Below, in pieces: positions 23,070-60,137 of a stretch of DNA of 64,000 bases. The number at the start of each line of letters is the position of its first letter. Position 1 is the stretch's first letter. The position numbers were made by a program, and so were the translations under genes. The notes under the pieces were generated by a model. The model saw only the letters and a list, made by a program, of their open reading frames with translations, did no database searches and had not been told where the DNA came from. The DNA is from a virus, in the IMG/VR virus record IMGVR_UViG_3300042541_002760; one strand, written 5' to 3'.

Positions 23070-24011
23070 TTAGTTACTCTTGTTATAGTTGAGATAGTAA
23101 TAACTGCTCATCGCATTTACTGCACTCGTGGTAAGACCAGGATTTTGGTCGAAGTAAACTCTAAAGGAGGTGAATGCACTTGCACCAACTGCACCTCCGA
23201 GAGAATCCTGTGCCTTGAGATTGATGGTCTTAATGCCCGATGCAGTAGATCCTGCAACCACAAGAACTGCAATATTGTCATATCGATAAGGAACAAGATC
23301 ATCATCGGTGCTTGTTGCTCCGAAGAATGTTGTTACAACGGCGGTTGGGACTTTGGTGGTATCGTTAATATCTGTTGCACCTGTATACAACTGACATCCT
23401 GCGTTTGTGCCCGACAACCCAATTGTAAGGGTATTTGTGAAGTTTGCATCATTGACAGCAACCTTGATATATGCAGTGACTCCTGTCAGACCACCAAGCG
23501 AAGATACACCATACTTGTTAACACCATATTGGAATCCAATTCCACCCGCACGACCTGGAGTCAGTCCTGCACCACCAAATGCTCCACCTGCCATGGTAGC
23601 AATATAGTTGAAGAATGAATGGGAAACTCCTGCATCACCTAGATTGGCTCCACCTGTTGCACTATCACCGTTGAATGGGCATGAAAAGTAAGGTGCATAG
23701 TTTGGAAGATCGCTTCCCGATGTCGCGCCTTGACCCCATGAAAACCCTGTTGGGCCTGTTCTTGGAGTAAAAATTGCCGATGTTTTATCATCAACAGGCA
23801 TTGCTACCAAAAGTTCAGTAATTACAGTACCGTTGGTATATGCAGTGATTGTTGACGAGGAAGAAGATACTCCTGTCGCACCATATGCAAAAAACGAACC
23901 CATAAGAGGCATTTCCCATCCACGGACGGTACGGGTGCAAAGTCTCTTCTGAATCTTATTCAGCCATGTTGGCTTTGATTCTTCTCTGTCGTTATTTTTC
24001 CAAGTTGCCAT
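23070..24011 (-). CDS. Thr-Gly-rich probable virion protein, 313 aa
   Basis: MATW.NND...SKPTWL N-terminus; many xTG motifs; late promoter at 24036. Confidence 0.6.
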   Translation of the reverse strand: MATWKNNDREESKPTWLNKIQKRLCTRTVRGWEMPLMGSFFAYGATGVSSSSSTITAYTNGTVITELLVAMPVDDKTSAIFTPRTGPTGFSWGQGATSGSDLPNYAPYFSCPFNGDSATGGANLGDAGVSHSFFNYIATMAGGAFGGAGLTPGRAGGIGFQYGVNKYGVSSLGGLTGVTAYIKVAVNDANFTNTLTIGLSGTNAGCQLYTGATDINDTTKVPTAVVTTFFGATSTDDDLVPYRYDNIAVLVVAGSTASGIKTINLKAQDSLGGAVGASAFTSFRVYFDQNPGLTTSAVNAMSSYYYLNYNKSN

Positions 24012-24038
24012 TTCGGTATATCTCCTCTGTGTTTCTAT

Positions 24039-24338
24039 TTAGTTCTTTGCGGGATCGATAGTTTTTTTGCCATTTGTGTCAATATGAGTCTGTACAGCCT
24101 TGGCAAAATTGTTGGCTTCCTCAGTCGTTCCACGGCAGTTGCACTCGCGAATTGCTTCATTGAAGTGCTTAACAAGAACATTTCGTTGTTCTTCAAGAAC
24201 CGTTTGTTCGACAACTTTAATTGCTGCCTCTTTTGCCTTGTCATTGAGACAAGGATTGATTTCAACATCGTTACGATGCTCTTCTAAGAATTTTGTAATA
24301 TCGGCAACGATTTTGGAATTGAATGGATTGTTAAACAT
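24039..24338 (-). CDS. Hypothetical late protein, 99 aa
   Basis: TATAAATA at 24361-24368 and SD AGGAG. Confidence 0.65.
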   Translation of the reverse strand: MFNNPFNSKIVADITKFLEEHRNDVEINPCLNDKAKEAAIKVVEQTVLEEQRNVLVKHFNEAIRECNCRGTTEEANNFAKAVQTHIDTNGKKTIDPAKN

Positions 24339-24411
24339 GGTCTCTCCTGTGGATACTTGTTATTTATAGATCACGATCATCCGCTTCATATGCTTTCTTT
24401 GATATGTTGCA

Positions 24412-27400
24412 TTATGATCCCTTTTCGGGGTTGTGTCCCCATACCTTAAGTGCTAACAATTTACGAGTAGGTTTTTTGTCTTCGTCTCTCAAAGGCCCTT
24501 TTGCGCCTTTCATTCGATTGATGAAATTGACTTGCTTCCCTGCCCATTTCCAATCATTATCAGACCATTTTTCCATGGGGGTATCTAGCATTCGAATGAT
24601 TGCACGGGCAGAATCTCGACCTGTACTAATTTTACCACCGTCTGCACCTGCCTTACCTGCCTCCTTGCGGGACAGTCCTGCCTCAGTTCCGTCATCAGAA
24701 TCAAGGAATGTATCAATCTCCTTGCCCGACATATTTACAAGTTTTTGCCATTCCTTATAGAGATCCGACATCTCCTCTTCAGAAGTATCTTCCTTTACGG
24801 ACACACAATTAGGAACTTTTTTCCCATTCTTCATCTTCATTCCCAATTGTTTAAACCCTACCCAACAAGGCTTATCTTCTTCAATTTCTTTCCGCTCGCC
24901 AGGGGTGTCATGCTTGTAGGTTTTTACAATCTTATCGGTGCCGATGAGTAACGGGCCTCTCTTACTCATAGAAGTCCATTTCAACACATTGTTGATTTTC
25001 TTAGCCTCATCAAGCCATGTCTCAGACGGCTCTACATCTTCTCCATGCATCTTCCATGCAGTCGCATAGAACACTTCCTTCCACCGCTTACCATATTGTT
25101 TTCGGAATGATGCTTTGGTTTTTTCATCCTTTGAGAAACTTCGTGCAGCACCTTTGGGTGGGCTAACTTCAAGTAAAAAGAATTCGAAGTCTTCGTTGAT
25201 ATCAGTCTTAGGCTGATTCGAACCCAACTCAGAATTGCGAATCTCTTTGAGGAATTCAATATAGGTTCGTGCTAGATATGCCCCATCCTGCATATTGCGG
25301 GTCAGGCAGCGTTCTTCATATGCAATAGAAAGGCGAATCTTATTGTTGTTTGTTGTATCGCTCTGATCGATCTTCGCAAGGCGTTCGAATGCATCGTCCT
25401 GTTCGTATCGATTGTTTAACTCTTTTAACTGTCCGTTTTTTGTGAGTTTTTCATAAAGTGTATTGCTATTAAGATTGACATGTTCTTCTTTTTTCGTTTG
25501 ATTCTGTGGGTATATTGCCTCCGCAGGATCAACCAACATTCCTGTCTTGCTCAGGAATTGCAGACCGAGAAGGACTTTGGTGGACATATGGTTGCGATCA
25601 CCAATTGAGAATTTGATGTTTGGGTATTTCTTTCCATGGAATTCAATGTCCATGAAGATAACAAGTCGCTTCTTCTCCCCAATACCACTCTTGACAATAA
25701 TTCGACTGACGATTTTCTTGGTAATCTTTTTACCATTCGACAGTTTGAAGGTAACCGTGTGGTTTCCATTGTCTTTGATGTCTTCGCCATGAATCATATT
25801 GTAGCCACTGTTGCCTGTATCGACCTTGGCTTCATATTCGACTCCATCAATCTTAACTGTTTCACGAACAGTGAGGTTGGAGAACAGTTTCCAATTGGAT
25901 TTGTTGAGAATATATTCAACAAAATCTTCGACCAACTCTTTGCCCTCGACATTGTTCTTGCCCTTGCCGTCTTCATAATAGCGGTAGTAGATATTACCAC
26001 TGCCTGGGCTTGCATTCATTTCAATGATGTATGGCTTACCATCATTGATTACATGATCAACTCCGACATAGTAGCACTTGCTAACCCGAGCGGCTTCCTC
26101 CACCAACTTGATTTCTTCATCAGAGAGTTGGAATGCACCACCCTTTGAACCTCGGGCAATGTTTGTGCGGAAATCCTTAGGAGCCTTATCCCGCTTTGCA
26201 CAGGCAAAAATTTTACCATTCAGGCAGATGCTGCGAACATCATTCTTGAAATCAGGCAGGAATTCCTGCATAATGATTTCGGCATTGTATTTCCATAGAG
26301 TTTGTAGAACAGACTTCAGGCTTTCCATGCTTTCAATCTTGGACACGCCGATGCCTTCAGCCCCCGTAAGAGTCTTTACGATGACGGGGAACTTACCACC
26401 AATTTCCTTAACGGCAGTTTCAATATTGCTTTCGTCTGCAACAAATGTTGTGCGTGGGTGTGGGAGATTGTGTTTCTTGAGAGCAATTGCAGTTTCTAGT
26501 TTGTTTGCACAGAGTTCCATTCCTCCACGCTCATTGATCATGAACACTCCATTGTTCTGCAAGATGGTCATGATAGCAACACCGATATCACTATTCATCA
26601 CACCACCACGAACAACTGCTACTGTGTCGCTTGGGATAACAGTGATATCTTTACCTTCACCGTCATAATTCTTGATAGTGATTTTCTTCGAAGTAACATT
26701 TGAAATTTCTACTTGTGCTTTAGAAGTCTTCACTGCATAGAATTCAATTTTGCGCTTCTTGCAGATTTCCTGCATCTTTTCGATTGTATCGGATAGATCT
26801 TTTTCCGAAGAAGTTAGTGCAAGGATTGTTACCTTGTCACTTGGGTTTACAGCCTCTGAGATATATGACTCCCCAAGACTCAATCCCTTACGAACATCGC
26901 TGTACATCTTCTTCTTGGTGGCATTATCCTTACCTGGAACGCCCGTGGCAAACTTTTTAAAGTCTCCATCGAAAGCAGCAGATCTCATCTTGGAAGCAGA
27001 CATTCCCTCAACACCTTGAGAGTCATCATCCCGTGCCTCACCCGCCTGAACTACTTCGAATTTTTCAAATGAATATACACGCTTCTTAGGATCACGATCT
27101 GCAACCTTGCCCTTATACTTGGCAATGTTTTTAAAGTTTTCGACTTGGTCACTTCCCGCAACCATGATGATGTTCTTATATCCCAATGAGCACACATATA
27201 GAACGGCAGTATACGGATCCTTTGCCATTCCTACAGGAAAGTTGCCCTTAGGAAAAAACTTCTTAAGGTATGCAACCTTTTGCTTATGTGATAGGGGGTT
27301 CTTCTTTGAGTCTTGTGTTTCAGATGCAAATATGAAATGATCTGCATTGTGCTTCTGCGCTTCGGAAACAATCTTGTCTACCAAGACACCGTGACCGATG

Positions 27401-27483
27401 GTCGGGGGGTTCATTCTGCCGAAAGCAATAACTGCTGTGTCTTTTTTTGCTTCGTCAATTCGATGTAAGAAACGCTCTATCAC
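24412..27483 (-). CDS. Multidomain protein: HIGH-type nucleotidyltransferase + RimK-like ATP-grasp + retropepsin-like (RimB/ATP-dependent Zn protease family) + DUF3140-like C-terminus
   Basis: FGRMNPPTIGH...MSASKMR; NKLET..PVIVKT..GAEGIGV...QEFL..DVR...FRTNIARG...GVD...IIEMNASPG; AKVDTG...LLG..FL; KLVNMS.KEI..FL.SD...GRDSARAI...LKVWGHNP. Confidence 0.8.
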   Translation of the reverse strand: MIERFLHRIDEAKKDTAVIAFGRMNPPTIGHGVLVDKIVSEAQKHNADHFIFASETQDSKKNPLSHKQKVAYLKKFFPKGNFPVGMAKDPYTAVLYVCSLGYKNIIMVAGSDQVENFKNIAKYKGKVADRDPKKRVYSFEKFEVVQAGEARDDDSQGVEGMSASKMRSAAFDGDFKKFATGVPGKDNATKKKMYSDVRKGLSLGESYISEAVNPSDKVTILALTSSEKDLSDTIEKMQEICKKRKIEFYAVKTSKAQVEISNVTSKKITIKNYDGEGKDITVIPSDTVAVVRGGVMNSDIGVAIMTILQNNGVFMINERGGMELCANKLETAIALKKHNLPHPRTTFVADESNIETAVKEIGGKFPVIVKTLTGAEGIGVSKIESMESLKSVLQTLWKYNAEIIMQEFLPDFKNDVRSICLNGKIFACAKRDKAPKDFRTNIARGSKGGAFQLSDEEIKLVEEAARVSKCYYVGVDHVINDGKPYIIEMNASPGSGNIYYRYYEDGKGKNNVEGKELVEDFVEYILNKSNWKLFSNLTVRETVKIDGVEYEAKVDTGNSGYNMIHGEDIKDNGNHTVTFKLSNGKKITKKIVSRIIVKSGIGEKKRLVIFMDIEFHGKKYPNIKFSIGDRNHMSTKVLLGLQFLSKTGMLVDPAEAIYPQNQTKKEEHVNLNSNTLYEKLTKNGQLKELNNRYEQDDAFERLAKIDQSDTTNNNKIRLSIAYEERCLTRNMQDGAYLARTYIEFLKEIRNSELGSNQPKTDINEDFEFFLLEVSPPKGAARSFSKDEKTKASFRKQYGKRWKEVFYATAWKMHGEDVEPSETWLDEAKKINNVLKWTSMSKRGPLLIGTDKIVKTYKHDTPGERKEIEEDKPCWVGFKQLGMKMKNGKKVPNCVSVKEDTSEEEMSDLYKEWQKLVNMSGKEIDTFLDSDDGTEAGLSRKEAGKAGADGGKISTGRDSARAIIRMLDTPMEKWSDNDWKWAGKQVNFINRMKGAKGPLRDEDKKPTRKLLALKVWGHNPEKGS

Positions 27484-28679
27484 GAGTTTACCTTCCTGTT
27501 TTGTCTACTAAATCGTAGTCGATTTACCAATTTAGTGACTCTTCCTGAACGAGAAACCACAATACCCTCAGGATCTGTTGGAGAAATCCCGTTGTCATCC
27601 ACGAAGAAATGCCCGAAACTAGACAGCATATAGAACTTACCGAGCAAAATTTCTTTTGCTTTGGCGATAAGATTATGTAGTTCAAACATAGAATTGAACT
27701 GTGATTCGTATGCATCAACAAAGGCAAGCAACTTGTTCAGTATATCTCTTTTGCCCTGCTTGCCTTTTTCTGTCTTTAGTTTTTCAATGTCCTTGTTTAA
27801 CTTGGTTTCCAAATTCAACTTAAGACCACGGGCAGAAAATTGTGAAAGACCGCCATTAATGGTGGCATTTATATATGGAAGGATGTATTCAACTAACTGT
27901 GCATTGGAAAGAAGAACCTTCAGGAACGGCGATACCTTTTTTGATTTTCCTTCACAGTCTTTGATCATGCCCATAAGTTTGCCATATTCATCAGGCTTGA
28001 GAAGTGCAGCCGTGATGTCATATATGTTGGGGTCAGTGAACCACACATTTGCATTCTTTTTCAGGGTACTAGCATCAAAGTTGAAGGAGACAGCAGATAA
28101 CTCCTGCATCGTTTTTCCACTATAGACGGTATGAAAAGCAATTCCAAGTTTTGCAGAGGAAACCGATTTCCCAATGGCACTGTCCTTTTCAATTGCATAC
28201 ATGATCGTATTGGGAGCAAAAGTAATATATTCTTTTCCATCAATCGTCTGTGATTTTTTGGAATCCATCGTAAACATCAAGTCGCCCTGCAATACTCCCT
28301 TGATGCCAAGTCCTGGCAGATACTTTAAGCACTCGATCAATTTTGCGGCAAGATCGGAAATCGACACACCTTTCCGTATTTCTGCTTCGGTGTGATATGC
28401 AGAGACAGTTTTGCTAAATGCTCCCTTGGTAGCAACAAAAAACTTATTGTTTTCGGGATTAATCCCACACACAATAGCAGGTTTCCCATCCCATTTGGTG
28501 GAGAGTCCTAAAGAAGTCGAGCCTGTTTTCAGGCTTTCTGTAATATCTTTGAGGAATGCAATAGCCAACTTTAAGCCTTTTTCACCCTCAAGAAGCATCA
28601 GATCTTCTATATGGTCTAGATGCTTATTTCGAACTACTTCTTCGGAAAGAACTCTGTTTGCTTGTTTGAATGACAGCAT
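27480..28679 (-). CDS. Conserved T4-like hypothetical protein (nucleotidyltransferase-associated)
   Basis: NKHLDHIED, TKWDGKPAIVCG, FFVATKG, QGDLMFT, PNTI.Y, PEG.V...KLVNRL.FS..N motifs; own late promoter at 28698. Confidence 0.75.
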   Translation of the reverse strand: MLSFKQANRVLSEEVVRNKHLDHIEDLMLLEGEKGLKLAIAFLKDITESLKTGSTSLGLSTKWDGKPAIVCGINPENNKFFVATKGAFSKTVSAYHTEAEIRKGVSISDLAAKLIECLKYLPGLGIKGVLQGDLMFTMDSKKSQTIDGKEYITFAPNTIMYAIEKDSAIGKSVSSAKLGIAFHTVYSGKTMQELSAVSFNFDASTLKKNANVWFTDPNIYDITAALLKPDEYGKLMGMIKDCEGKSKKVSPFLKVLLSNAQLVEYILPYINATINGGLSQFSARGLKLNLETKLNKDIEKLKTEKGKQGKRDILNKLLAFVDAYESQFNSMFELHNLIAKAKEILLGKFYMLSSFGHFFVDDNGISPTDPEGIVVSRSGRVTKLVNRLRFSRQNRKVNS

Positions 28680-28716
28680 ATTTGCTCCGTGCGAAGTTAT
28701 TTAGGCATATTTGTAA

Positions 28717-28791
28717 TGGGCGGGATGGGAGTCGAACCCACATGAGCGCACTTATAAGGTGCGACCTTTTACCACTATCAGGCACCCGCCC
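28717..28791 (-). tRNA. tRNA-Ile(UAU)
   Basis: GGGCGGG/CCCGCCC acceptor, CGCAC-CT TAT AA-GTGCG anticodon arm, GTGGG-TTCGACT-CCCAT T arm, A73. Confidence 0.9.
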
Positions 28792-54792: not shown

Positions 54793-54844
54793 GAGGGGTA
54801 TTGCCCAAAGATTATTTATCGTTTGCTACATTTTGATAAGTAAG

Positions 54845-54919
54845 TGACCCCAAGGGGATTTGAACCCCTGTTACCTCCGTGAAAGGGAGGTGTCCTAGAC
54901 CAGGCTAGACGATGGGGCC
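54845..54919 (-). tRNA. tRNA-Glu(UUC)
   Basis: GGCCCCA/TGGGGTC acceptor, CCTCC-CT TTC AC-GGAGG, AGGGG-TTCAAAT-CCCCT. Confidence 0.95.
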
Positions 54920-54920
54920 A

Positions 54921-54950
54921 AAAGAAATGGGGGGAGAAAACTCCCCCCAA
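54921..54950 (-). terminator. Intrinsic terminator-like hairpin
   Basis: Minus strand TGGGGGGAG-TTTT-CTCCCCCCA followed by TTTCTTT. Confidence 0.6.
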
Positions 54951-54975
54951 AGTAGTTGCATCATGTGGGTGGCGG

Positions 54976-55281
54976 TTACCGACTCTTCTTGGTTTCTAGT
55001 TCGGACATTCGATCTTCCATGTCTCCGATGTGTCTCCAAATTTCCTGCTGCCGTTCGCGTTCGTTGTATTCAACAATGGCGTTTGTCATGCGTTCTTTGG
55101 CAGAGACAACAGCATTTCCTGCGAGGTTAACAATTGCTCCCACACCAAACAGATAGAGTGCCATAGGCATCTTACCATCAAACACACACCATACTGCACT
55201 TGCAGTTGCGGCAAGCCCAACGACAATCAGAATGTTGCCAAGATCAATGTTCTCAAGCAGTCCTTTTTCTTTTCTAATCAT
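54976..55281 (-). CDS. Small two-TM membrane protein (start MIRKEKG)
   Basis: Two hydrophobic helices plus coiled-coil tail; AAGGA SD; TTGACT-16 nt-TAGACT upstream. Confidence 0.6.
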   Translation of the reverse strand: MIRKEKGLLENIDLGNILIVVGLAATASAVWCVFDGKMPMALYLFGVGAIVNLAGNAVVSAKERMTNAIVEYNERERQQEIWRHIGDMEDRMSELETKKSR

Positions 55282-55376
55282 ATCAAAGTTCCTTTCATGG
55301 AATGGAGTATACGGCACCAGAACGGTGCTTAACGGAATTAGTCTACCCGAACTCCTACTTAAGTCAATCAAATTTT

Positions 55377-55781
55377 TCATATTATTGTCAACGAGCAATA
55401 CACTCTATTGGGAGTTCCCTTGTAGTATCCAAATATGAGGAGATGACGGCGACCCGATTTTCCACCACGAATGATTGTGCCGTATTTAATAATACGATTT
55501 CCATTCGTTCGTTGCCATCCATTACTTGTGGCGAATGAAGTAATTCCACTCTTCATAGAAGTATCAACAGACCCCTTGAAGAGATATCCCTTAATTGACC
55601 CACCCCATACATTGGACTCTTTCATCTTGCCAACCAATGTAATAATATCAGAATACCCTCTGCTATCAGACTTTCCGTCCTTGCCTAACTTAGCAGCAAG
55701 GAGAGCCTTTACATCACTAGCAGGAGCGCATGTTCGAGTGCGACATGCAACTACACGGGCATTGTTGCGAGGTGTAGCCAT
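55377..55781 (-). CDS. Hypothetical basic protein, 134 aa
   Basis: Coupled ORF (TAATG). Confidence 0.55.
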   Translation of the reverse strand: MATPRNNARVVACRTRTCAPASDVKALLAAKLGKDGKSDSRGYSDIITLVGKMKESNVWGGSIKGYLFKGSVDTSMKSGITSFATSNGWQRTNGNRIIKYGTIIRGGKSGRRHLLIFGYYKGTPNRVYCSLTII

Positions 55782-56188
55782 TAGTTAATCTTGCTTGCCT
55801 TCGCCTTTTTTGCCTTACTAATCTTGGTTTTTGTTGCGGGCATTTCCATAAGTTGTTCTGCTTCTGCAAATCCCTTTATGTAATATGCGCTCAGTTTTCC
55901 CGAGCGATTTTTACCATCTACATCGGTGAGAATTTTAAGCATATTGGATGCAGACATTACATGATCTGCCAATCGCTGCAATTCGGTTTTCATGAACTTG
56001 AAGCGATGTGAATATGGAAGAGTTCCTGCACCCCGAAATACTATAATCGGCTCATCGGGATCCGTAATATCGATACTGTTCAAAGAAACCATTCCCGAAA
56101 TTGCAGGGATGATTGTTATATCTTTGGGCTGCTCTGTTAGCATCTTTTTGATATCATTAACAAGTGGATTGTTGAATGTGTCTTTCAT
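55781..56188 (-). CDS. Hypothetical late protein, 135 aa
   Basis: TATAAATA 8 nt before ATG; N-terminus ...IKKMLTE. Confidence 0.6.
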   Translation of the reverse strand: MKDTFNNPLVNDIKKMLTEQPKDITIIPAISGMVSLNSIDITDPDEPIIVFRGAGTLPYSHRFKFMKTELQRLADHVMSASNMLKILTDVDGKNRSGKLSAYYIKGFAEAEQLMEMPATKTKISKAKKAKASKIN

Positions 56189-56199
56189 AGTAATCGTAT

Positions 56200-56796
56200 T
56201 TATACTTCGTCATCTAACAGAACAATATCGTATTCCATCGTAATGGCACAATCCTCACAGAGAGTCTTATACCACCCCCCTGCGCCCTTCCCACTTCGAC
56301 AGAGCGTTCCTAGCGAACCACAGACCTCACAGACAGTTCCTGAGAGTTGCTCTGTCATATCAACCAATCCCCGAATTCGATCATTCCCGCCCTCATAGTA
56401 AAATCGCAGGGTTCCAAACTTTTCCTTCATTTGCAATACCCGAAAAGAATTTGAACCCCCTTCTAAAAGGGATGGATCTCGCGCAATCTCATTATCAATC
56501 ATTCGAGCAAGATTGGCAACTAGAGTGTCCCATCCGTATCCAAACTCCCAGTGAACAGTCCCGACAGATCGCTCAGGATTGTCGGTCTTGGTGCCGCTTC
56601 CGAACACTCGGGGGTAGGACGCTTCAATTTCTTCTCTTCGCTTTTCTTGGGCGGCGGCGATTTCTCTGCATAGTTTTTTGACAGAGGCATCGACTCCTCC
56701 GTCTGTAGAGCCGTCTCGAAGTCCTGCTCCTCCCTGAAGCGAACTGTTTGATAGATTGTTTTCGATCCCGTCTTCTTGTGTAATTCGTTCAGCCAT
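56200..56796 (-). CDS. Conserved phage Zn-ribbon protein (true start uncertain)
   Basis: G.GW..LV, Q.KEKFGTLRFYY, CEVCG, GW.KTLC..C. Confidence 0.75.
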   Translation of the reverse strand: MAERITQEDGIENNLSNSSLQGGAGLRDGSTDGGVDASVKKLCREIAAAQEKRREEIEASYPRVFGSGTKTDNPERSVGTVHWEFGYGWDTLVANLARMIDNEIARDPSLLEGGSNSFRVLQMKEKFGTLRFYYEGGNDRIRGLVDMTEQLSGTVCEVCGSLGTLCRSGKGAGGWYKTLCEDCAITMEYDIVLLDDEV

Positions 56797-56921
56797 TTTG
56801 CATCCTTTTCTGCATTGTTTTCAGTATCATACACGGCAACAACTCTGCCATGATCATTTAGATATCCACAGTCCTCAGAACCGTGAAGAAGTTTTATTGC
56901 CCAGAGTTTTGGTTTCGCCAC
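56520..56921 (-). CDS. Hypothetical protein overlapping the next gene
   Basis: MAKPKLWAIKL...VVAVYDTE..AE..A..LN looks protein-like; overlaps 56200-56796 by 277 nt in another frame. Confidence 0.5.
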   Translation of the reverse strand: MAKPKLWAIKLLHGSEDCGYLNDHGRVVAVYDTENNAEKDAKWLNELHKKTGSKTIYQTVRFREEQDFETALQTEESMPLSKNYAEKSPPPKKSEEKKLKRPTPECSEAAPRPTILSDLSGLFTGSLDTDGTL

Positions 56922-57226
56922 TTCTTAGTCTCCTTAAGCCCACGCTTACTATAGTTTACAGAAACAAGAACACTTGCAGTTGGGCGTTCACTCTCATTGA
57001 TAGGAGTTGGGGTTGGGAATGGTTCGACAGAAACAATTTCTCCAATATCGAAAAACTGTTCACCTACCATATAGAACGGGCCGCCTTCGAAGTCGAACAT
57101 ATCTTCTCCTCCACGAGAAAATAAAGACTCACCCGTTATCTTGAAAACTCCCCTATCGGGATCGATCAAAACTACCGAACGAGGAACTCCGTATCTACTA
57201 TTGATTTTGAATGAATATTCTTCCAT
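56894..57226 (-). CDS. Hypothetical protein (start MEEYSF, leaderless)
   Basis: SRYG..R, DFEGGP motif; ATG 7 nt after TATACT. Confidence 0.6.
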   Translation of the reverse strand: MEEYSFKINSRYGVPRSVVLIDPDRGVFKITGESLFSRGGEDMFDFEGGPFYMVGEQFFDIGEIVSVEPFPTPTPINESERPTASVLVSVNYSKRGLKETKKWRNQNSGQ

Positions 57227-57233
57227 TTGATAC

Positions 57234-57262
57234 AGTATACTCCATGTTAGAGATTGTGTCAA
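57234..57262 (-). promoter_or_regulatory. Sigma70-type promoter
   Basis: TTGACA-17 nt-TATACT. Confidence 0.8.
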
Positions 57263-57465
57263 GTCAATTTTGTGATGTCAAATGTGCCGTTATGCTGCAT
57301 CAAAATTTGAGTTGATGTGTAGTGTCGAATAATACCACCTTCACATAGAACAACACACCACAAGTCATTGTCAAAAGTTCCACCACTAGTGACATAAAGT
57401 GCATATCCTTTTTTCTTGTCCGCTATTACAAGAACGGGAATTGGGTTTCTAAACTCTAGCATCAT
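57259..57465 (-). CDS. Small conserved phage protein
   Basis: MMLEFRNPIPV....GYA.YV..GG..DND.W.VVL..GG...H.....I....N.TF.I. Confidence 0.65.
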   Translation of the reverse strand: MMLEFRNPIPVLVIADKKKGYALYVTSGGTFDNDLWCVVLCEGGIIRHYTSTQILMQHNGTFDITKLT

Positions 57466-57467
57466 AA

Positions 57468-57539
57468 AGCCATCTATCGGATTTGAACCGATGACCTGTT
57501 CATTACAAGTGAACTGCACTACCTCTGTGCTAAGATGGC
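57468..57539 (-). tRNA. tRNA-Thr(UGU)
   Basis: GCCATCT/AGATGGC, GTTCA-CT TGT AA-TGAAC, ATCGG-TTCAAAT-CCGAT. Confidence 0.95.
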
Positions 57540-57544
57540 GGGAA

Positions 57545-57626
57545 TGGGAGAAGAGGGATTCGAACCCCCGAAGGCAATGCCATTTGATTTACAGTCAAAC
57601 CTCGTTGACCGCTTGAGTATTCTCCC
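57545..57626 (-). tRNA. tRNA-Tyr(GUA)
   Basis: GGGAGAA/TTCTCCC, TTTGA-CT GTA AA-TCAAA, long variable arm. Confidence 0.95.
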
Positions 57627-57630
57627 AAAA

Positions 57631-57702
57631 CTGGTTCGGAAGGACTCGAACCTTCAGCCGTCCCGTTAACAGCGGGATGCACTGCCATTGTGCTACGAAC
57701 CA
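57631..57702 (-). tRNA. tRNA-Asn(GUU)
   Basis: TGGTTCG/CGAACCA, TCCCG-CT GTT AA-CGGGA, G73. Confidence 0.95.
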
Positions 57703-57851
57703 AAATGTGATGCAGATTTCTAATTACCATAATACGACCACATCAAAACGCTACGAACGGCAAGTCTCTCATGACCCCGTGCCGATTCGGGGGATTTGCT
57801 TTACTCCACAAAAACCGTTCTTCGGAATTATAGTGCAGAGACAAGAGACAA

Positions 57852-57923
57852 AGCGAACGATGGGATTCGAACCCACGACCATCGGTTTGGAAAACCGAGA
57901 CTCTACCACTGAGTTACATTCGC
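57852..57923 (-). tRNA. tRNA-Gly(UCC)
   Basis: GCGAATG/CGTTCGC, TCGGT-TT TCC AA-ACCGA, U73. Confidence 0.95.
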
Positions 57924-57931
57924 ATACCTAA

Positions 57932-58284
57932 TGGAGTCGGGGGGAATCGAACCCCCGTGATGTCATGCTTACTGTGCTGCCTACTACGCTAATATCCATC
58001 ACTTTATTCAGACCCGCCGCTGATGGCGACTTAGCGGATCAGATTTGGAGCCTTTATTCTCGGTCTTTATTGGCACTCCCATTCCTAAAGACCCATCCTT
58101 TGTTTTACCCAATCATCCTAAAGGAGTCGGATGATCGAGTGCGTCAGGCTGCGAGAGCCAAACGGCGTGACTGCTTCTTATTAAATCTGGCAGTTGTTAT
58201 TTCCATACGAGTTTAAGAGCCTAGCATGGTTCCTCTTAGCGCATCACACATCAGTCTTCATGCATTCGATACCTGTTCGACCCC
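57932..58284 (-). ncRNA. ssrA: tmRNA, tag (A)ARFNKKQSRRLALAA*
   Basis: GGGGTCG/CGACTCC-A acceptor with G3-U70; T arm GGGGG-TTCGATT-CCCCC; 353 nt; resume codon GCC after ATAACAACT; tag ORF 58144-58191. Confidence 0.93.
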
Positions 58285-58306
58285 GAAGTAATTTACTACA
58301 TTGATG

Positions 58307-58334
58307 ATTGTATCATGTTCTCCCGATTTGTCAA
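58307..58334 (-). promoter_or_regulatory. Sigma70-type promoter for the tmRNA/tRNA cluster
   Basis: TTGACA-16 nt-TACAAT with TG extension. Confidence 0.75.
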
Positions 58335-58336
58335 GA

Positions 58337-58702
58337 TCATTTTAGACGAAGTAGATACTTTGTTCTGTTTAGTGAACCGACCATCTCGTCTCGAATATTC
58401 AAAAGATCAGTATCCTCAGGCTTAACGATTGTTGGGAGATCCTTCATCATATATGCAATTGCACTATCAATGATTGCAACACATCCATTGTTATCTTTAT
58501 AATTTGCCACAGTCAGTTTGTAATCACCCTTGGCGGTTGGAACTCCATTGCGACCTGAGAAGGTCTCGACAAAGGTGTCAATGCTACCATCAAGACTTTC
58601 ATATAACTTGCCCAAAGCCTTATGCTCGGCATATGACTTGGTCTGCCAATGGAGAACTTTGAGTTGTGCCTGAAGGGTGAGTAGGGTAGTGATAATGTTC
58701 AT
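58337..58702 (-). CDS. Dps/ferritin-like protein
   Basis: HWQT.SYAEHKALG.LY..L....D.FVE...RDE.....N...YLL. Confidence 0.75.
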   Translation of the reverse strand: MNIITTLLTLQAQLKVLHWQTKSYAEHKALGKLYESLDGSIDTFVETFSGRNGVPTAKGDYKLTVANYKDNNGCVAIIDSAIAYMMKDLPTIVKPEDTDLLNIRDEMVGSLNRTKYLLRLK

Positions 58703-58710
58703 GTCCTTAT

Positions 58711-58953
58711 TTAGTCTTCCGAAGCATCTTCTGTCAGGTACTGCTCAACATCCTGCTTCATCTTCTGAATATCTTGCTTTGCTTCTTCGAGAATCTTTAC
58801 AGATGCTTCCCGATATCCAACACCGTATTCGCTCCAATAGACGGAGTCATCGGTAGTAGCACAGCCCCATGCCTCAGGACATGCCTTGGGCTTCCCCCCA
58901 TACCGATCAGCCCATCCATCGCGATATCCCTTGCCTGGAATATAGTTACTCAT
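58711..58953 (-). CDS. Hypothetical protein, 80 aa
   Basis: GY.DGW.D...G / Y..GY pattern; ATGA overlap. Confidence 0.55.
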   Translation of the reverse strand: MSNYIPGKGYRDGWADRYGGKPKACPEAWGCATTDDSVYWSEYGVGYREASVKILEEAKQDIQKMKQDVEQYLTEDASED

Positions 58954-59327
58954 GTGGTCTTTCCTTTCTTTTTATTTCGAATTTGGCGGGTAACCTGAAT
59001 ACACCCGTTCCTTACTCGAATGTCAAGAGGAGTGCCTACTCGAAGTTTTAACTTGCGACATACCTCAGGAGGAATGCGAATGTAACACTTCTTCTCACTT
59101 ATTTCTTTTCCCGTAGTTTCATCCAAGTCAAAGAACATAGATTCTTCAATCGGAACTATCCATGAAGTGGGAGGCTTTTCATTTCTTTTTTGCTTGGGTT
59201 GTACATCAGGAGGCGCAATATTTTTGATAGGCTGCTTCCCAAAGATATCGTCAAAGTTCTTATCAAACTGAGTCTTATCGATTGGGCGATATACATCTCC
59301 CTTACCAGCACCGTTATTACCTTGCAT
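58950..59327 (-). CDS. Hypothetical protein with C-terminal AbrB/MazE-like domain
   Basis: GAGKGD..RP.D...F..N.D.IF N-terminus; YIRIPPEVCRKLKLRVGTPLDI swapped-hairpin pattern. Confidence 0.6.
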   Translation of the reverse strand: MQGNNGAGKGDVYRPIDKTQFDKNFDDIFGKQPIKNIAPPDVQPKQKRNEKPPTSWIVPIEESMFFDLDETTGKEISEKKCYIRIPPEVCRKLKLRVGTPLDIRVRNGCIQVTRQIRNKKKGKTT

Positions 59328-59346
59328 AATAATTCCTTTCATTCAG

Positions 59347-59419
59347 TGACGAAGGTGGGAGTCGAACCCACACTTTGTTGATTTTAAGTCAACTGTCTCT
59401 GCCTTTGGACTACTTCGCC
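59347..59419 (-). tRNA. tRNA-Leu(UAA), short variable arm
   Basis: GGCGAAG/CTTCGTC, GTTGA-CT TAA AA-TCAAC, 5-nt variable loop, A73. Confidence 0.9.
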
Positions 59420-59425
59420 ATTATA

Positions 59426-59953
59426 TTAATAACCAAGTTTTTTCAGAGTAGCAATTGTGTCGGCGGTATTCTTATGTAAGATTCCAATACCACCTGCTTT
59501 CGTCCATTCAGCAATATTAAGTTTCCAATCATCAATCAGTATATTGGGCACACCATTTGCAACAGCAAATTTTTCCTTGTCTCTTCGTATAACAATATGA
59601 TTCATTGCGGGTTTGGGATCGAGGTGCTTGTCGATCCAACGAATCTTATCTTGCTTCGAGTCAGGTTGCCATGTATTCGTATGTGCAGATAAGATGTTTG
59701 GATTGTGCTTGGAGATATATCTCCACAACACTTTCCCATCTGCTGTCCATGGAAGTTCTGCAAATAGGTGTGGATGTTCTTTATCAATTTTAGACTTAAG
59801 TGGATCTACGATACTGTCAAAATTTCTATTCGACAATCCCGAAATCTTATACAACTTTGAGATGCCACCAATGATGTCTACAAGAACACCATCCATGTCA
59901 CAGTAAATCTGTCCAAGGGATGCTTCTTTGATATGATGCGTGAATGATTTCAT
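59426..59953 (-). CDS. HAD-family 5'(3')-nucleotidase (start MKSFTHHIKE)
   Basis: IYCDMDGVLVD, ILS, K..W, ILIDD...NI.EW..AGGIGI.H. Confidence 0.88.
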   Translation of the reverse strand: MKSFTHHIKEASLGQIYCDMDGVLVDIIGGISKLYKISGLSNRNFDSIVDPLKSKIDKEHPHLFAELPWTADGKVLWRYISKHNPNILSAHTNTWQPDSKQDKIRWIDKHLDPKPAMNHIVIRRDKEKFAVANGVPNILIDDWKLNIAEWTKAGGIGILHKNTADTIATLKKLGY

Positions 59954-59985
59954 GTCATCCATATTTAGTCTCCTACAGTATCGAA

Positions 59986-60058
59986 TGCTCTCGGTGGGAC
60001 TCGAACCCACGACCAATTGATTAAAAGTCAACTGCGCTACCAACTGCGCTACAAGAGC
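59986..60058 (-). tRNA. tRNA-Lys(UUU)
   Basis: GCTCTTG/CGAGAGC, GTTGA-CT TTT AA-TCAAT. Confidence 0.95.
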
Positions 60059-60063
60059 GAAAG

Positions 60064-60137
60064 CGTCCTTGGGTGGACTCGAACCACCGACCTACAGATT
60101 AGAAATCTGTTACTCTATCCAACTGAGTTACAAGGAC
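60064..60137 (-). tRNA. tRNA-Arg(UCU)
   Basis: GTCCTTG/CAAGGAC, ACAGA-TT TCT AA-TCTGT, A20. Confidence 0.95.

What the first reader, a model, noticed from the sequence alone, without database searches (positions are those of the whole stretch)
24412..27483. Nucleotidyltransferase-RimK-protease-DUF3140 polyprotein with Glu sites between domains
One ORF fuses a HIGH nucleotidyltransferase, a complete RimK-like ATP-grasp ligase, a DTG retropepsin-like domain, a CW.G.KQ.GMK.K.GK.VPNCV motif and a DUF3140-like domain. Linkers carry gp21-like sites (LGESYISE, DINE, FLLE, WLDE, IEE). Known: RimK glutamylates ribosomal protein S6, and Pseudomonas RimB is a related poly-Glu protease. Inference: a capsid-processed polyprotein delivers a glutamylation writer/eraser pair that may modify host ribosomes at infection.
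Basis: partly seen in the sequence, partly recalled or inferred. Interest (0 to 1): 0.75.

Follow-up and report, generated by a model that had tools for sequence, protein, structure and literature searches.

The report
Phage head-cargo polyprotein with RimK/RimB
An uncultured marine T4-like phage joins a nucleotidyltransferase, a glutamate-adding ligase, a poly-glutamate-type protease and a DUF3140 module in one 1023-residue late protein whose leader and linker motifs suggest it is packed into the phage head, cut up and injected, although no cleavage or packaging has been observed for it.

Summary
The ORF (24412-27483, minus strand, 1023 aa) is real and the domain calls hold. It has a phage "cytidyltransferase" HIGH-type nucleotidyltransferase, a RimK ATP-grasp ligase, a PF05618 RimB-like retropepsin with DTG, and DUF3140. 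It is not a misassembly: more than 100 protein clusters at 44-100% identity keep the architecture and gene order.

The gene lies among replication genes. However, it is translationally coupled to a DUF6267 gene that sits behind a T4-late-type box.

The capsid-cargo reading is partly supported, indirectly:
- The family starts with a T4 capsid-targeting-like leader.
- Conserved [LI]-x-E motifs sit in the flexible linkers at E11, E205/E210, E764 and E869.
- In cyanophage S-CREM2, 5 of 6 ORFs with this leader, including a homologue of the N-domain, were found in virions by mass spectrometry.
- The DUF3140 module recurs in giant "polyvalent" phage proteins.

Several points are not shown: cleavage, packaging, the S6 target, and a gp21 protease on this 65%-complete fragment. 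FLLE and WLDE are poorly conserved. The CW..PNCV motif is a lineage-specific insertion. This orthologue lacks the poly-Glu run that 28 of 66 relatives carry.

The scan found orthologues on other DNA before, with the same reading. I class it as a new variant of known kinds.

The parts
28698..28704 (-). T4-late-promoter-like box CTAAATA, 18 nt upstream of the DUF6267 ATG
   Evidence: [ACT]TAAATA boxes are strand-biased (54 against 18). 26 of 54 lie 8-39 nt before an ORF start, against 4.5 expected. ATAAATA sits at the same place in two distant relatives.
27480..28679 (-). DUF6267 gene (399 aa), upstream partner. Its TGA stop overlaps the GTG start of the polyprotein.
   Evidence: PF19782 303 bits and phrog_455. 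The DUF6267-polyprotein overlap is conserved at 48-55% identity. Its N-terminus MLSFKQANRVLSEE is leader-like.
24412..27483 (-). Whole 1023-aa polyprotein ORF, including the stop codon
   Evidence: More than 100 clusters share the architecture.
27451..27483 (-). Leader, aa 1-11 (M/V)IERFLHRIDE, followed by AKK. Candidate capsid-targeting sequence with an I-x-E site.
   Evidence: Family N-termini. T4 ipII/ipIII start MKTYQEFIAE. pLDDT is below 50. [LI]-x-E here is conserved in 46/65.
26869..27450 (-). HIGH-type nucleotidyltransferase domain, aa 12-205
   Evidence: phrog_3041 E 2e-52. Invariant PPTxGH and GMSASKMR motifs. 31% identical (E 5e-21) to the virion-detected S-CREM2 gp154.
26854..26877 (-). 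Junction LGESYISE, aa 203-210, with two overlapping [LI]-x-E motifs
   Evidence: E205 64/66 and E210 46/66. aa 206-215 have pLDDT below 50. [LIV]-x-E directly follows the domain end in many unrelated fusions of this nucleotidyltransferase.
25894..26838 (-). RimK-type ATP-grasp ligase, aa 216-530
   Evidence: TIGR00768 146.8 bits, above the 143.4 cut-off. PDB RimK chains at E 1e-19 to 1e-24. DFRTN and E488-x-N490 are invariant.
25516..25872 (-). RimB-like retropepsin domain, aa 538-656, with DTG at 555-557
   Evidence: PF05618 32.4 bits, above the cut-off of 27. D555, T556 and G557 are invariant. All-beta model.
24979..25461 (-). Helical variable region, aa 675-835, containing the conserved T-D-I-N-E-D-F-E site (E764, nt 25192-25203)
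   Evidence: helices; aa 756-772 have pLDDT below 50. (51/66). No PDB fold match.
24877..24885 (-). I-E-E site, aa 867-869, inside the conserved TPGER.R[LI].E motif before DUF3140
   Evidence: 51/66. It lies in the aa 833-900 segment with pLDDT below 50.
24787..24867 (-). Lineage-specific insertion carrying CWVGFKQLGMKMKNGKKVPNCV, aa 873-899
   Evidence: Absent from most relatives. Found in 16 of the 361 proteins fetched up to then. Weak hits to unknown-function PHROGs.
24424..24783 (-). DUF3140 module, aa 901-1020, ending WGHNPE
   Evidence: PF11338 31.5 bits, above the cut-off of 25. 413 50%-identity clusters at E below 1e-10, mostly inside large multidomain proteins, several with ART-PolyVal.

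Best explanation
The ORF encodes a polyvalent head-cargo protein of a T4-like marine phage.

Proposed sequence of events:
1. It is transcribed late, together with the upstream DUF6267 gene, and translated by coupling (inferred).
2. Its roughly 11-residue N-terminal leader, related to the T4 capsid-targeting sequence, takes it into the prohead core (inferred).
3. A gp21-type prohead protease, which cuts after Glu in [LI]-x-E, removes the leader. It probably also cuts the exposed linkers at E205/E210, E764 and E869 (inferred).
4. This would release three products: the nucleotidyltransferase, the RimK-retropepsin unit, and the C-terminal DUF3140 module. The first two also exist as separate leader-tagged phage genes; DUF3140 also occurs alone.
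5. The pieces are ejected with the DNA and act early in the host (inferred). RimK would add alpha-linked Glu to acidic C-termini or make poly-Glu. The retropepsin would trim Glu runs. The nucleotidyltransferase would adenylylate or cytidylylate a small molecule.

Shown: the architecture, the catalytic motifs, the conservation, the motif placement, and virion detection of homologues. Inferred: everything concerning packaging, cleavage, injection and targets.
For: Architecture and conservation:
- The domains are confirmed.
- More than 100 clusters keep the four-domain order.
- Synteny and the DUF6267 overlap are kept at 48-55% identity.

Late expression:
- A CTAAATA box lies 18 nt before the operon's first ATG.
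- Such boxes are strand-biased, and 26 of 54 precede ORF starts, against 4.5 expected.
- The box is conserved in relatives.

Leader:
- T4 ipII/ipIII start MKTYQEFIAE and ipI starts MKTFKEF. In T4 the DNA pattern hits four real gene starts, three of which are the internal proteins.
- Polyprotein relatives start M-x-x-F-x-x-H/Q-[LI]-x-E-A-KK.
- The nucleotidyltransferase family (5523 hits) mostly starts MKTYQRFMTE, MKRFTQFVE or MKTLKRFISE, whatever its C-terminal cargo.
- Stand-alone phage RimK-retropepsins often do the same.
- At least 11 genes of this genome start MK[TS][FY]x[EQ], against about 0.04 expected by my rough estimate.

Experimental link:
- In S-CREM2, 5 of 6 strict-leader ORFs are in the published virion proteome (Fisher P = 0.003).
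- These include gp154, a homologue of this N-domain (PMC10665884).
- S-CREM2 and Mosig both encode an S77 gp21 protease.
- YerA41's RimK-retropepsin is recorded as particle-associated.

Sites:
- Conserved [LI]-x-E is specific to linkers: 5 columns for E, against 0-2 for any other residue.
- All of these sites lie in or at the edge of segments with pLDDT below 50.
- T4 Alt is cut at ITE-6 and LTE-619 (PMC5694885).

DUF3140:
- It recurs in giant proteins with ART-PolyVal, a methylase and a topoisomerase.
Against: - No proteomic or biochemical data exist for this protein or this phage.
- The 147.5-kb fragment (65% complete) has no detectable gp20, gp21, gp22 or gp23. The protease is therefore assumed, not seen.
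- This ORF's own leader (VIERFLHRIDE) is a degenerate form that fails the strict regular expression I used on S-CREM2. One clade (MKTFSEATKNA) lacks the [LI]-x-E.
- The total [LI]-x-E count is not above chance (P = 0.07). Two equally conserved sites lie in the ATP-grasp core.
- The gene sits among replication genes.
- Leader-like N-termini also occur on an HNH-endonuclease-like ORF here and on T4 gp61.1.
- Virion mass-spectrometry lists can contain contaminants. The S-CREM2 authors say so themselves, gp154 had only 3 peptides, and YerA41's list includes ribonucleotide reductase.
- Stand-alone DUF3140 proteins rarely carry the leader (1 of 23).
Confidence: 0.5

Rival explanations
1. It is a cytoplasmic, non-virion multifunctional enzyme made during infection. 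In this reading it is an auxiliary metabolic or host-takeover gene, as Monier et al. proposed for phage RimK in 2008. The N-terminal peptide would be just a helix of the nucleotidyltransferase domain, and the linker [LI]-x-E motifs would be kept for structural reasons. The protein would stay intact.
For: - It is located between the DnaB-like helicase, primase and ThyX genes.
- Mosig's RimK gene lies between regA and gp43.
- The raw [LI]-x-E count is not significant.
- Members without a leader exist (MADKTTVFAF and similar).
- Virion mass-spectrometry hits may be abundant contaminants (caveat of the authors of PMC10665884).
Against: - The late-type box lies upstream.
- The leader is shared by unrelated proteins and tracks virion detection in S-CREM2 (P = 0.003).
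- Only Glu is conserved after [LI]-x in otherwise variable, flexible linkers.
- The DUF3140 module is typical of polyvalent proteins.
Confidence: 0.28
2. It is a self-processing polyprotein. The embedded RimB-like retropepsin, rather than the prohead protease, cuts the chain. In relatives it would cut at a built-in Glu5-7 run about 17-20 residues after the protease domain, freeing the C-terminal modules and leaving a Glu-ended RimK-protease unit.
For: - Pseudomonas RimB cleaves internal runs of 5-6 or more contiguous Glu, and bacterial RimBK hybrids are active (PMC11957791).
- 28 of 66 relatives carry E5-E7 just after the domain.
- The DTG motif is invariant.
Against: - This orthologue has only KKEEH there, so the site is missing, as it is in 38 of 66 relatives.
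- The conserved linker motifs are [LI]-x-E, not Glu runs.
- The same leader and site occur on many proteins that have no retropepsin.
Confidence: 0.12
3. The ligase-protease pair works on phage material rather than host ribosomes. It might make and size poly-alpha-glutamate as an internal polyanion, or glutamylate phage internal proteins, inside or on the way to the head.
For: - RimK makes free poly-alpha-Glu and RimB stimulates this (PMC11957791).
- Built-in Glu runs occur in relatives.
- T4 heads are known to retain acidic peptides (my own knowledge, not checked here).
Against: There is no direct evidence. No conserved C-terminal Glu-Glu acceptor was identified in neighbouring phage proteins. 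The family's C-terminus ends variably: E, EK, EKK or EKGS.
Confidence: 0.08

Closest known systems
T4 internal proteins IPI-III and Alt (capsid-targeting sequence plus gp21 processing, ejected with the DNA)
   Same: - A short N-terminal leader of the same pattern: MK-x-[FY]-x-x-[FY]-[LI]-x-E followed by Ala or Lys.
- Cleavage-type [LI]-x-E motifs.
- An enzyme cargo, as with Alt.
- Genes scattered outside the head module.
   Different: - It is far larger and multi-enzymatic.
- The leader here is degenerate.
- Internal cuts between domains are only predicted.
- Neither the protease nor packaging has been seen for this phage.
Polyvalent proteins of phages and conjugative elements (Iyer et al. 2017, PMC5512222)
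   Same: - Several unrelated enzymatic domains plus an embedded peptidase in one phage polypeptide.
- Predicted delivery with the DNA.
- It shares the DUF3140 module with ART-PolyVal-containing giants.
   Different: - That paper does not mention RimK or retropepsin, and its only mention of nucleotidyltransferases concerns the Pol-beta superfamily, not HIGH-type enzymes.
- The typical MuF, metallopeptidase and ART modules are absent here.
- Targeting would be by a T4-type leader.
Pseudomonas RimABK system and bacterial RimBK hybrids (PMC7343187, PMC11957791)
   Same: A RimK-family ligase (TIGR00768, above cut-off) is joined to a PF05618 retropepsin with a catalytic DTG. Hybrids of the two domains are known and proteolytically active.
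   Different: - The domain order is RimK then protease.
- It scores far below the RimB and RimK equivalog cut-offs (23.5 against 200; 70 against 331).
- There is no RimA.
- It is phage-encoded, with extra domains.
- The substrate is unknown.
Phage RimK with a C-terminal DUF785/PF05618 domain in GOS T4-like contigs (Monier, Claverie and Ogata 2008, PMC2530865); Pelagibacter phage Mosig gp5
   Same: The same RimK-PF05618 unit, in marine T4-like phages, next to replication genes.
   Different: Those are about 460-aa stand-alone genes. Here the unit is embedded between a nucleotidyltransferase and DUF3140. The leader and site logic was not described there.
Cyanophage 'cytidyltransferase'/NMNAT-like virion proteins (S-CREM2 gp154; PMC10665884)
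   Same: A homologous domain (31% identity, E 5e-21) with the same leader (MKNFSSFLTE). It was detected in virions by mass spectrometry.
   Different: gp154 is a 286-aa protein with a different short C-terminal extension. The paper does not mention a capsid-targeting sequence.

Membership tests
RimK family alpha-L-glutamate ligase (TIGR00768 / PF08443) | Profile score above the curated cut-off | tested here: met
   TIGR00768 146.8 bits against 143.4. PF08443 103.1 bits against 21.
RimK family alpha-L-glutamate ligase (TIGR00768 / PF08443) | ATP-grasp catalytic and Mg-binding residues (Lys in the VIVKT strand, DFRxN, E-x-N) | tested here: met
   K370, D437-F438-R439-T440-N441, E488 and N490 are invariant in 66 relatives. 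The identification of these as the catalytic positions rests on my own knowledge.
RimK family alpha-L-glutamate ligase (TIGR00768 / PF08443) | Orthology to the S6--glutamate ligase (equivalog NF007764), and S6 as substrate | tested here: not met
   70.4 bits against a cut-off of 331. The substrate cannot be tested with these tools.
RimB-like retropepsin (PF05618; NF052261) | Pfam score above the gathering threshold, and a catalytic D-T/S-G | tested here: met
   32.4 bits against 27. D555-T556-G557 are invariant.
RimB-like retropepsin (PF05618; NF052261) | RimB equivalog score, and poly-Glu endopeptidase activity | tested here: not met
   NF052261 scores 23.5 bits against 200. Activity cannot be tested here.
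HIGH-signature nucleotidyltransferase (PF01467 CTP_transf_like; NMNAT/PPAT-like) | (H/T)xGH motif and [IM]S[AS][ST]xxR motif | tested here: met
   PPT-x-G-H (aa 26-31) and M161-S-A-S-K-M-R167 are invariant or nearly so.
HIGH-signature nucleotidyltransferase (PF01467 CTP_transf_like; NMNAT/PPAT-like) | Curated profile score, or a specific relation to NMNAT | tested here: inconclusive
   PF01467 scores 18.6 bits, below 21. A profile search of the PDB gave only PPAT at E 0.3-0.5. phrog_3041 scores E 2e-52. 'NMNAT' is annotation only.
DUF3140 (PF11338) | Profile score above the cut-off | tested here: met
   31.5 bits against 25. The structure match to a bacterial DUF3140 model has TM 0.84 by target.
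T4-type capsid-targeted internal protein | N-terminal leader of about 10 aa resembling MKTYQEFIAE and ending in [LI]-x-E | tested here: inconclusive
   This ORF has (M)IERFLHRIDE-A, which keeps F, I-x-E and A but not K2, T3 or E6. Most relatives fit better.
T4-type capsid-targeted internal protein | A gp21 (S77) prohead protease and a scaffold core in the same genome | tested here: not met
   None on the 147.5-kb, 65%-complete fragment. It is present in Mosig and S-CREM2. Absence here most likely reflects the missing third of the genome.
T4-type capsid-targeted internal protein | Physical presence in the virion with the leader removed | not testable with these tools
   Only homologues were seen in virions (S-CREM2 gp154, YerA41 gp066).
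Polyvalent proteins (Iyer et al. 2017) | Two or more unrelated effector or enzyme domains in one phage or plasmid polypeptide, often with a peptidase | tested here: met
   Three enzymes, one of them a peptidase, plus DUF3140. DUF3140 co-occurs with ART-PolyVal in proteins of 1467-2557 aa.
Polyvalent proteins (Iyer et al. 2017) | Delivery into the recipient cell with the DNA | not testable with these tools
   Inference only.

The most novel reading that the evidence does not exclude
Marine T4-like phages may use a conserved T4-type targeting-and-cleavage code: an MK.F..F[LI].E leader and [LI]-x-E linkers. With it they would load interchangeable enzyme cargos into the head on a nucleotidyltransferase 'carrier' module. 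The cargos seen include RimK/RimB, zeta-toxin-like kinases and sigma-like domains. In this protein the code would deliver a glutamylation writer/eraser pair that remodels host ribosomal S6, or other acidic C-termini, within moments of DNA injection. That would be a virion-borne translational takeover device.
Probability: 0.15. Interest if true: 0.85.

Novelty: new variant of a known kind. Interest (0 to 1): 0.62.

Why it matters
If the reading is right, the T4 internal-protein system, with its capsid-targeting leader and gp21 trimming, is not a peculiarity of coliphages. It would be a general cargo-loading code of the abundant oceanic T4-like phages, and the leader could be used to read their injected effector sets directly from sequence.

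It would also give the first case of a protein-glutamylation writer/eraser pair delivered by a virion. That makes testable an idea raised in 2008, that phage RimK modifies the host translation apparatus.

The finding also gives DUF3140 a context, as a module of polyvalent injected proteins. It offers a natural polyprotein scaffold for packaging foreign enzymes into T4-like heads.

Tried and rejected
- Misassembly or chimera: rejected. Near-identical proteins occur on many independent contigs, and more than 100 diverged clusters share the architecture.
- Close DNA relatives among cultured phages: none. By protein search, no cultured phage covers 80% or more of the ORF.
- Head genes on the genome fragment: nothing found. 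I tried PF03420 and PF07068, and tblastn with T4 gp18-24 and with ORFs flanking the Mosig and S-CREM2 gp21.
- IMG/VR loci carrying the gene are all short, 30 kb or less, so no complete relative could be searched for the protease.
- PDB sequence search of the nucleotidyltransferase domain: no hit. A profile search gave only marginal PPAT hits.
- PDB search of the C-terminal 369 aa: only a weak low-complexity-like match to a tape-measure protein, E 4e-4.
- Foldseek of the C-terminal model against the PDB: nothing at E 0.001 or better.
- LysW-like acceptor tail idea for the C-terminal WGHNPE: dropped. The Atlas match shows the fold is shared with bacterial DUF3140. From memory, unchecked, bacterial DUF3140 proteins carry the same WGH[DN]P motif. 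The family's C-termini also vary.
- DUF6267 as a ligase-like enzyme: I noticed a KWDG motif by eye, but there was no PDB sequence support, so I left it as a note.
- Literature terms 'cytitidyltransferase' and 'DUF3140' returned no papers.
- Stand-alone DUF3140 proteins: checked for leaders, and only 1 of 23 has one. That module gives no support for targeting on its own.


Full report
**The object.** The window is a one-strand phage region. On the minus strand, 24412-27483 is a single 1023-codon ORF. Its GTG start overlaps the TGA of the upstream gene (GTGA) and follows AGGAAGG. Orthologues start at the same place with ATG.

**Domains.**
- aa 11-210: the phage 'cytidyltransferase' family (phrog_3041, E 2e-52). 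Pfam CTP_transf_like is just below its cut-off.
- aa 233-497: RimK (TIGR00768 146.8 bits against 143.4). The best PDB hits are RimK chains at 1e-19 to 1e-24.
- aa 540-656: PF05618, the RimB-like retropepsin (32.4 bits against 27).
- aa 911-1006: DUF3140 (31.5 bits against 25).

In a 66-sequence alignment the signature residues of all three enzymes are invariant. These are PPTxGH and GMSASKMR in the nucleotidyltransferase, K370, DFRTN and E488-x-N490 in the ligase, and D555-T-G in the protease. The domains therefore look catalytically competent.

**Is the fusion real?** Yes. The 5.8-billion-protein search returned more than 100 clusters, 950-1330 aa and 44-100% identical, with the same domain order, on contigs up to 182 kb. 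In two relatives at 48-55% identity the neighbourhood is the same: DnaB-like helicase, then DUF6267, then the polyprotein with overlapping start, then DUF7207, a primase-sized gene and ThyX (compared).

RimK fused to PF05618 in marine T4-like phage contigs was already reported in 2008 (PMC2530865). It also exists as a stand-alone gene in Pelagibacter phage Mosig and in Yersinia phage YerA41.

**Context and timing.** The gene lies among replication genes, not in a head module. However, 18 nt before the ATG of the upstream, translationally coupled DUF6267 gene is CTAAATA, one base off the T4 late promoter core. In the genome fragment [ACT]TAAATA is strand-biased (54 against 18). 26 of the 54 boxes lie 8-39 nt before an ORF start, against 4.5 expected and a maximum of 12 in 500 randomisations. 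ATAAATA sits at the same place in both distant relatives. Late co-expression is therefore likely, though inferred.

**The leader.** T4 ipII and ipIII begin MKTYQEFIAE-A and ipI begins MKTFKEF. The corresponding DNA pattern hits only four true gene starts in T4, three of them the internal proteins.

Polyprotein relatives begin MKKFTQIIAEAPK, MKNFAQHLTEAPKK, MIERFSQHLNEAKKK and similar. This ORF has the weaker VIERFLHRIDEAKK. One clade (MKTFSEATKNA) lacks the [LI]-x-E.

The nucleotidyltransferase domain is a very large family (5523 hits). It occurs alone or fused to unrelated C-terminal parts, including zeta-toxin/AAA_33 kinases, a sigma-70 region 4 and DUF5824. Most members start MKTYQRFMTE, MKRFTQFVE or MKTLKRFISE, and many have [LIV]-x-E directly after the domain end, VRKGM.

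Many stand-alone phage RimK-retropepsins carry the same kind of leader, for example Mosig's MQVQPFKNYLEE-A.

This genome has at least 11 genes starting MK[TS][FY]x[EQ], including seven in a row. They are mostly orphans, like the hypervariable T4 internal-protein locus.

**An experimental anchor.** Cyanophage S-CREM2 (Kyanoviridae) has a published virion proteome (PMC10665884). I applied a strict leader pattern to its whole genome and got six ORFs. Five are in the virion list: ORF6 SAM hydrolase MKDFDSFLEE, ORF13, ORF14 kinase VKRFDAFLTE, ORF136, and ORF154 cytidylyltransferase MKNFSSFLTE. Overall 52 of 221 genes are in that list (Fisher P = 0.003).

ORF154 is homologous to the N-domain studied here (31% identity, E 5e-21). 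The paper notes frequent detection of such enzymes in cyanophage virions but does not mention a targeting sequence. S-CREM2 and Mosig both encode an S77 gp21 protease. YerA41's RimK-retropepsin is annotated as particle-associated, from a broad 63-protein mass-spectrometry list.

**The cleavage-site claim.** The raw count of [LI]-x-E in this protein is 15, against 10.2 +/- 2.9 in shuffles (P = 0.07), so the count alone means little. Conservation is more telling.

Seven sites are kept in about 70% or more of 66 relatives. Two are in the ATP-grasp core (E462, E488). Five are in linkers: E11, E205, E210, E764 and E869.

Within linker regions, columns where 60% or more of sequences have [LI]-x-X number five for X = Glu and 0-2 for each other residue.

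In the AlphaFold model the low-confidence segments are 1-12, 206-215, 652-674, 756-772 and 833-900. The conserved linker sites fall in or at the edge of these segments.

The predicted pieces are the nucleotidyltransferase, RimK plus retropepsin, a helical module and DUF3140. The first two are units that exist as separate leader-tagged phage genes, and DUF3140 also occurs alone.

FLLE (28/66) and WLDE (31/46) are not well conserved. T4 gp21 cuts after Glu in such motifs, for example in Alt at ITE-6 and LTE-619 (PMC5694885).

**The C-terminal half.** It is helical and has no PDB fold match. An exhaustive search with the DUF3140 part found 413 clusters at E below 1e-10. Their median length is 615 aa and they reach 2557 aa, with the module at any position. 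All but one of the six sampled giants combine it with ART-PolyVal; partners seen among them include an Eco57I-type methylase, a topoisomerase-I core and a beta-clamp. These are the 'polyvalent proteins' of Iyer et al. 2017. That paper does not mention RimK or retropepsins, and its only nucleotidyltransferases are Pol-beta-superfamily enzymes. A structure search also matched the module inside a prohead-protease/capsid fusion cluster. This is a weak lead.

**Self-processing.** Pseudomonas RimB cuts internal runs of 5-6 or more Glu, and RimBK hybrids are active (PMC11957791). 28 of 66 relatives carry E5-E7 about 17-20 residues after the protease domain. This orthologue has only KKEEH. Self-cleavage at poly-Glu may therefore occur in relatives but is unlikely here.

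**What is missing.** The genome record is a 147.5-kb fragment judged 65% complete. It has no detectable portal, protease, scaffold or major capsid gene. Nothing shows packaging, cleavage, injection or a substrate for this protein. The S6 target is inference, and the ligase and protease score far below the S6-ligase and RimB equivalog cut-offs.

**Verdict.** The main rival is an intact cytoplasmic enzyme. It is a new variant that combines three known themes: T4 internal-protein targeting, polyvalent proteins, and the RimK/RimB pair. The scan had already met orthologues of 1201 and 1237 aa in other genomes and read them the same way.

Noticed in passing
window 57932-58284 (-), and the tRNA cluster at 54844-60137: ARAGORN calls a phage-encoded tmRNA (tag peptide ARFNKKQSRRLALAA) inside a cluster of eight tRNA genes. 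A ninth, tRNA-Ile(TAT), sits at 28717-28791 just upstream of the DUF6267-polyprotein operon.
   Followed up: no
G000:C1:5430-9813 (outside the window; locus L036 2931-7314): Seven consecutive genes all start MK[TS][FY]x[EQ]..E. Most have no family match; one is HNH-like. This resembles the hypervariable internal-protein locus of T-even phages.
   Followed up: partly
window 27480-28679 (-): The DUF6267 protein has a K-W-D-G motif reminiscent of ligase or capping-enzyme motif I, and a leader-like N-terminus. There is no PDB sequence hit. In phrog_455 it is fused to the same nucleotidyltransferase domain.
   Followed up: partly
proteins P0136, P0235, P0197, P0160: The same leader-tagged nucleotidyltransferase domain is fused in other phages to zeta-toxin/AAA_33 kinases, a sigma-70 region-4 domain or DUF5824. 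It behaves like a promiscuous N-terminal carrier module.
   Followed up: partly
window 24361-24368 (-) and 24036-24042 (-): A perfect TATAAATA and a CTAAATA box lie just downstream of the ORF. They precede the 99-aa and 313-aa ORFs (24039-24338 and 23070-24011), which are therefore probably late genes.
   Followed up: no
T4 NC_000866 18966-19130 (gene 61.1): T4 gp61.1 (54 aa, hypothetical, next to the primase gene) starts with the same 18 nt as ipI (MKTFKE). It is a possible unrecognised capsid-targeted peptide.
   Followed up: no
loci L037 9012-9272, L038 8999-9259: In distant relatives a separate 86-aa DUF5824 gene directly follows the polyprotein. Other relatives carry a weak, sub-threshold DUF5824-like stretch inside the polyprotein. 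The module seems to move in and out of the chain.
   Followed up: no
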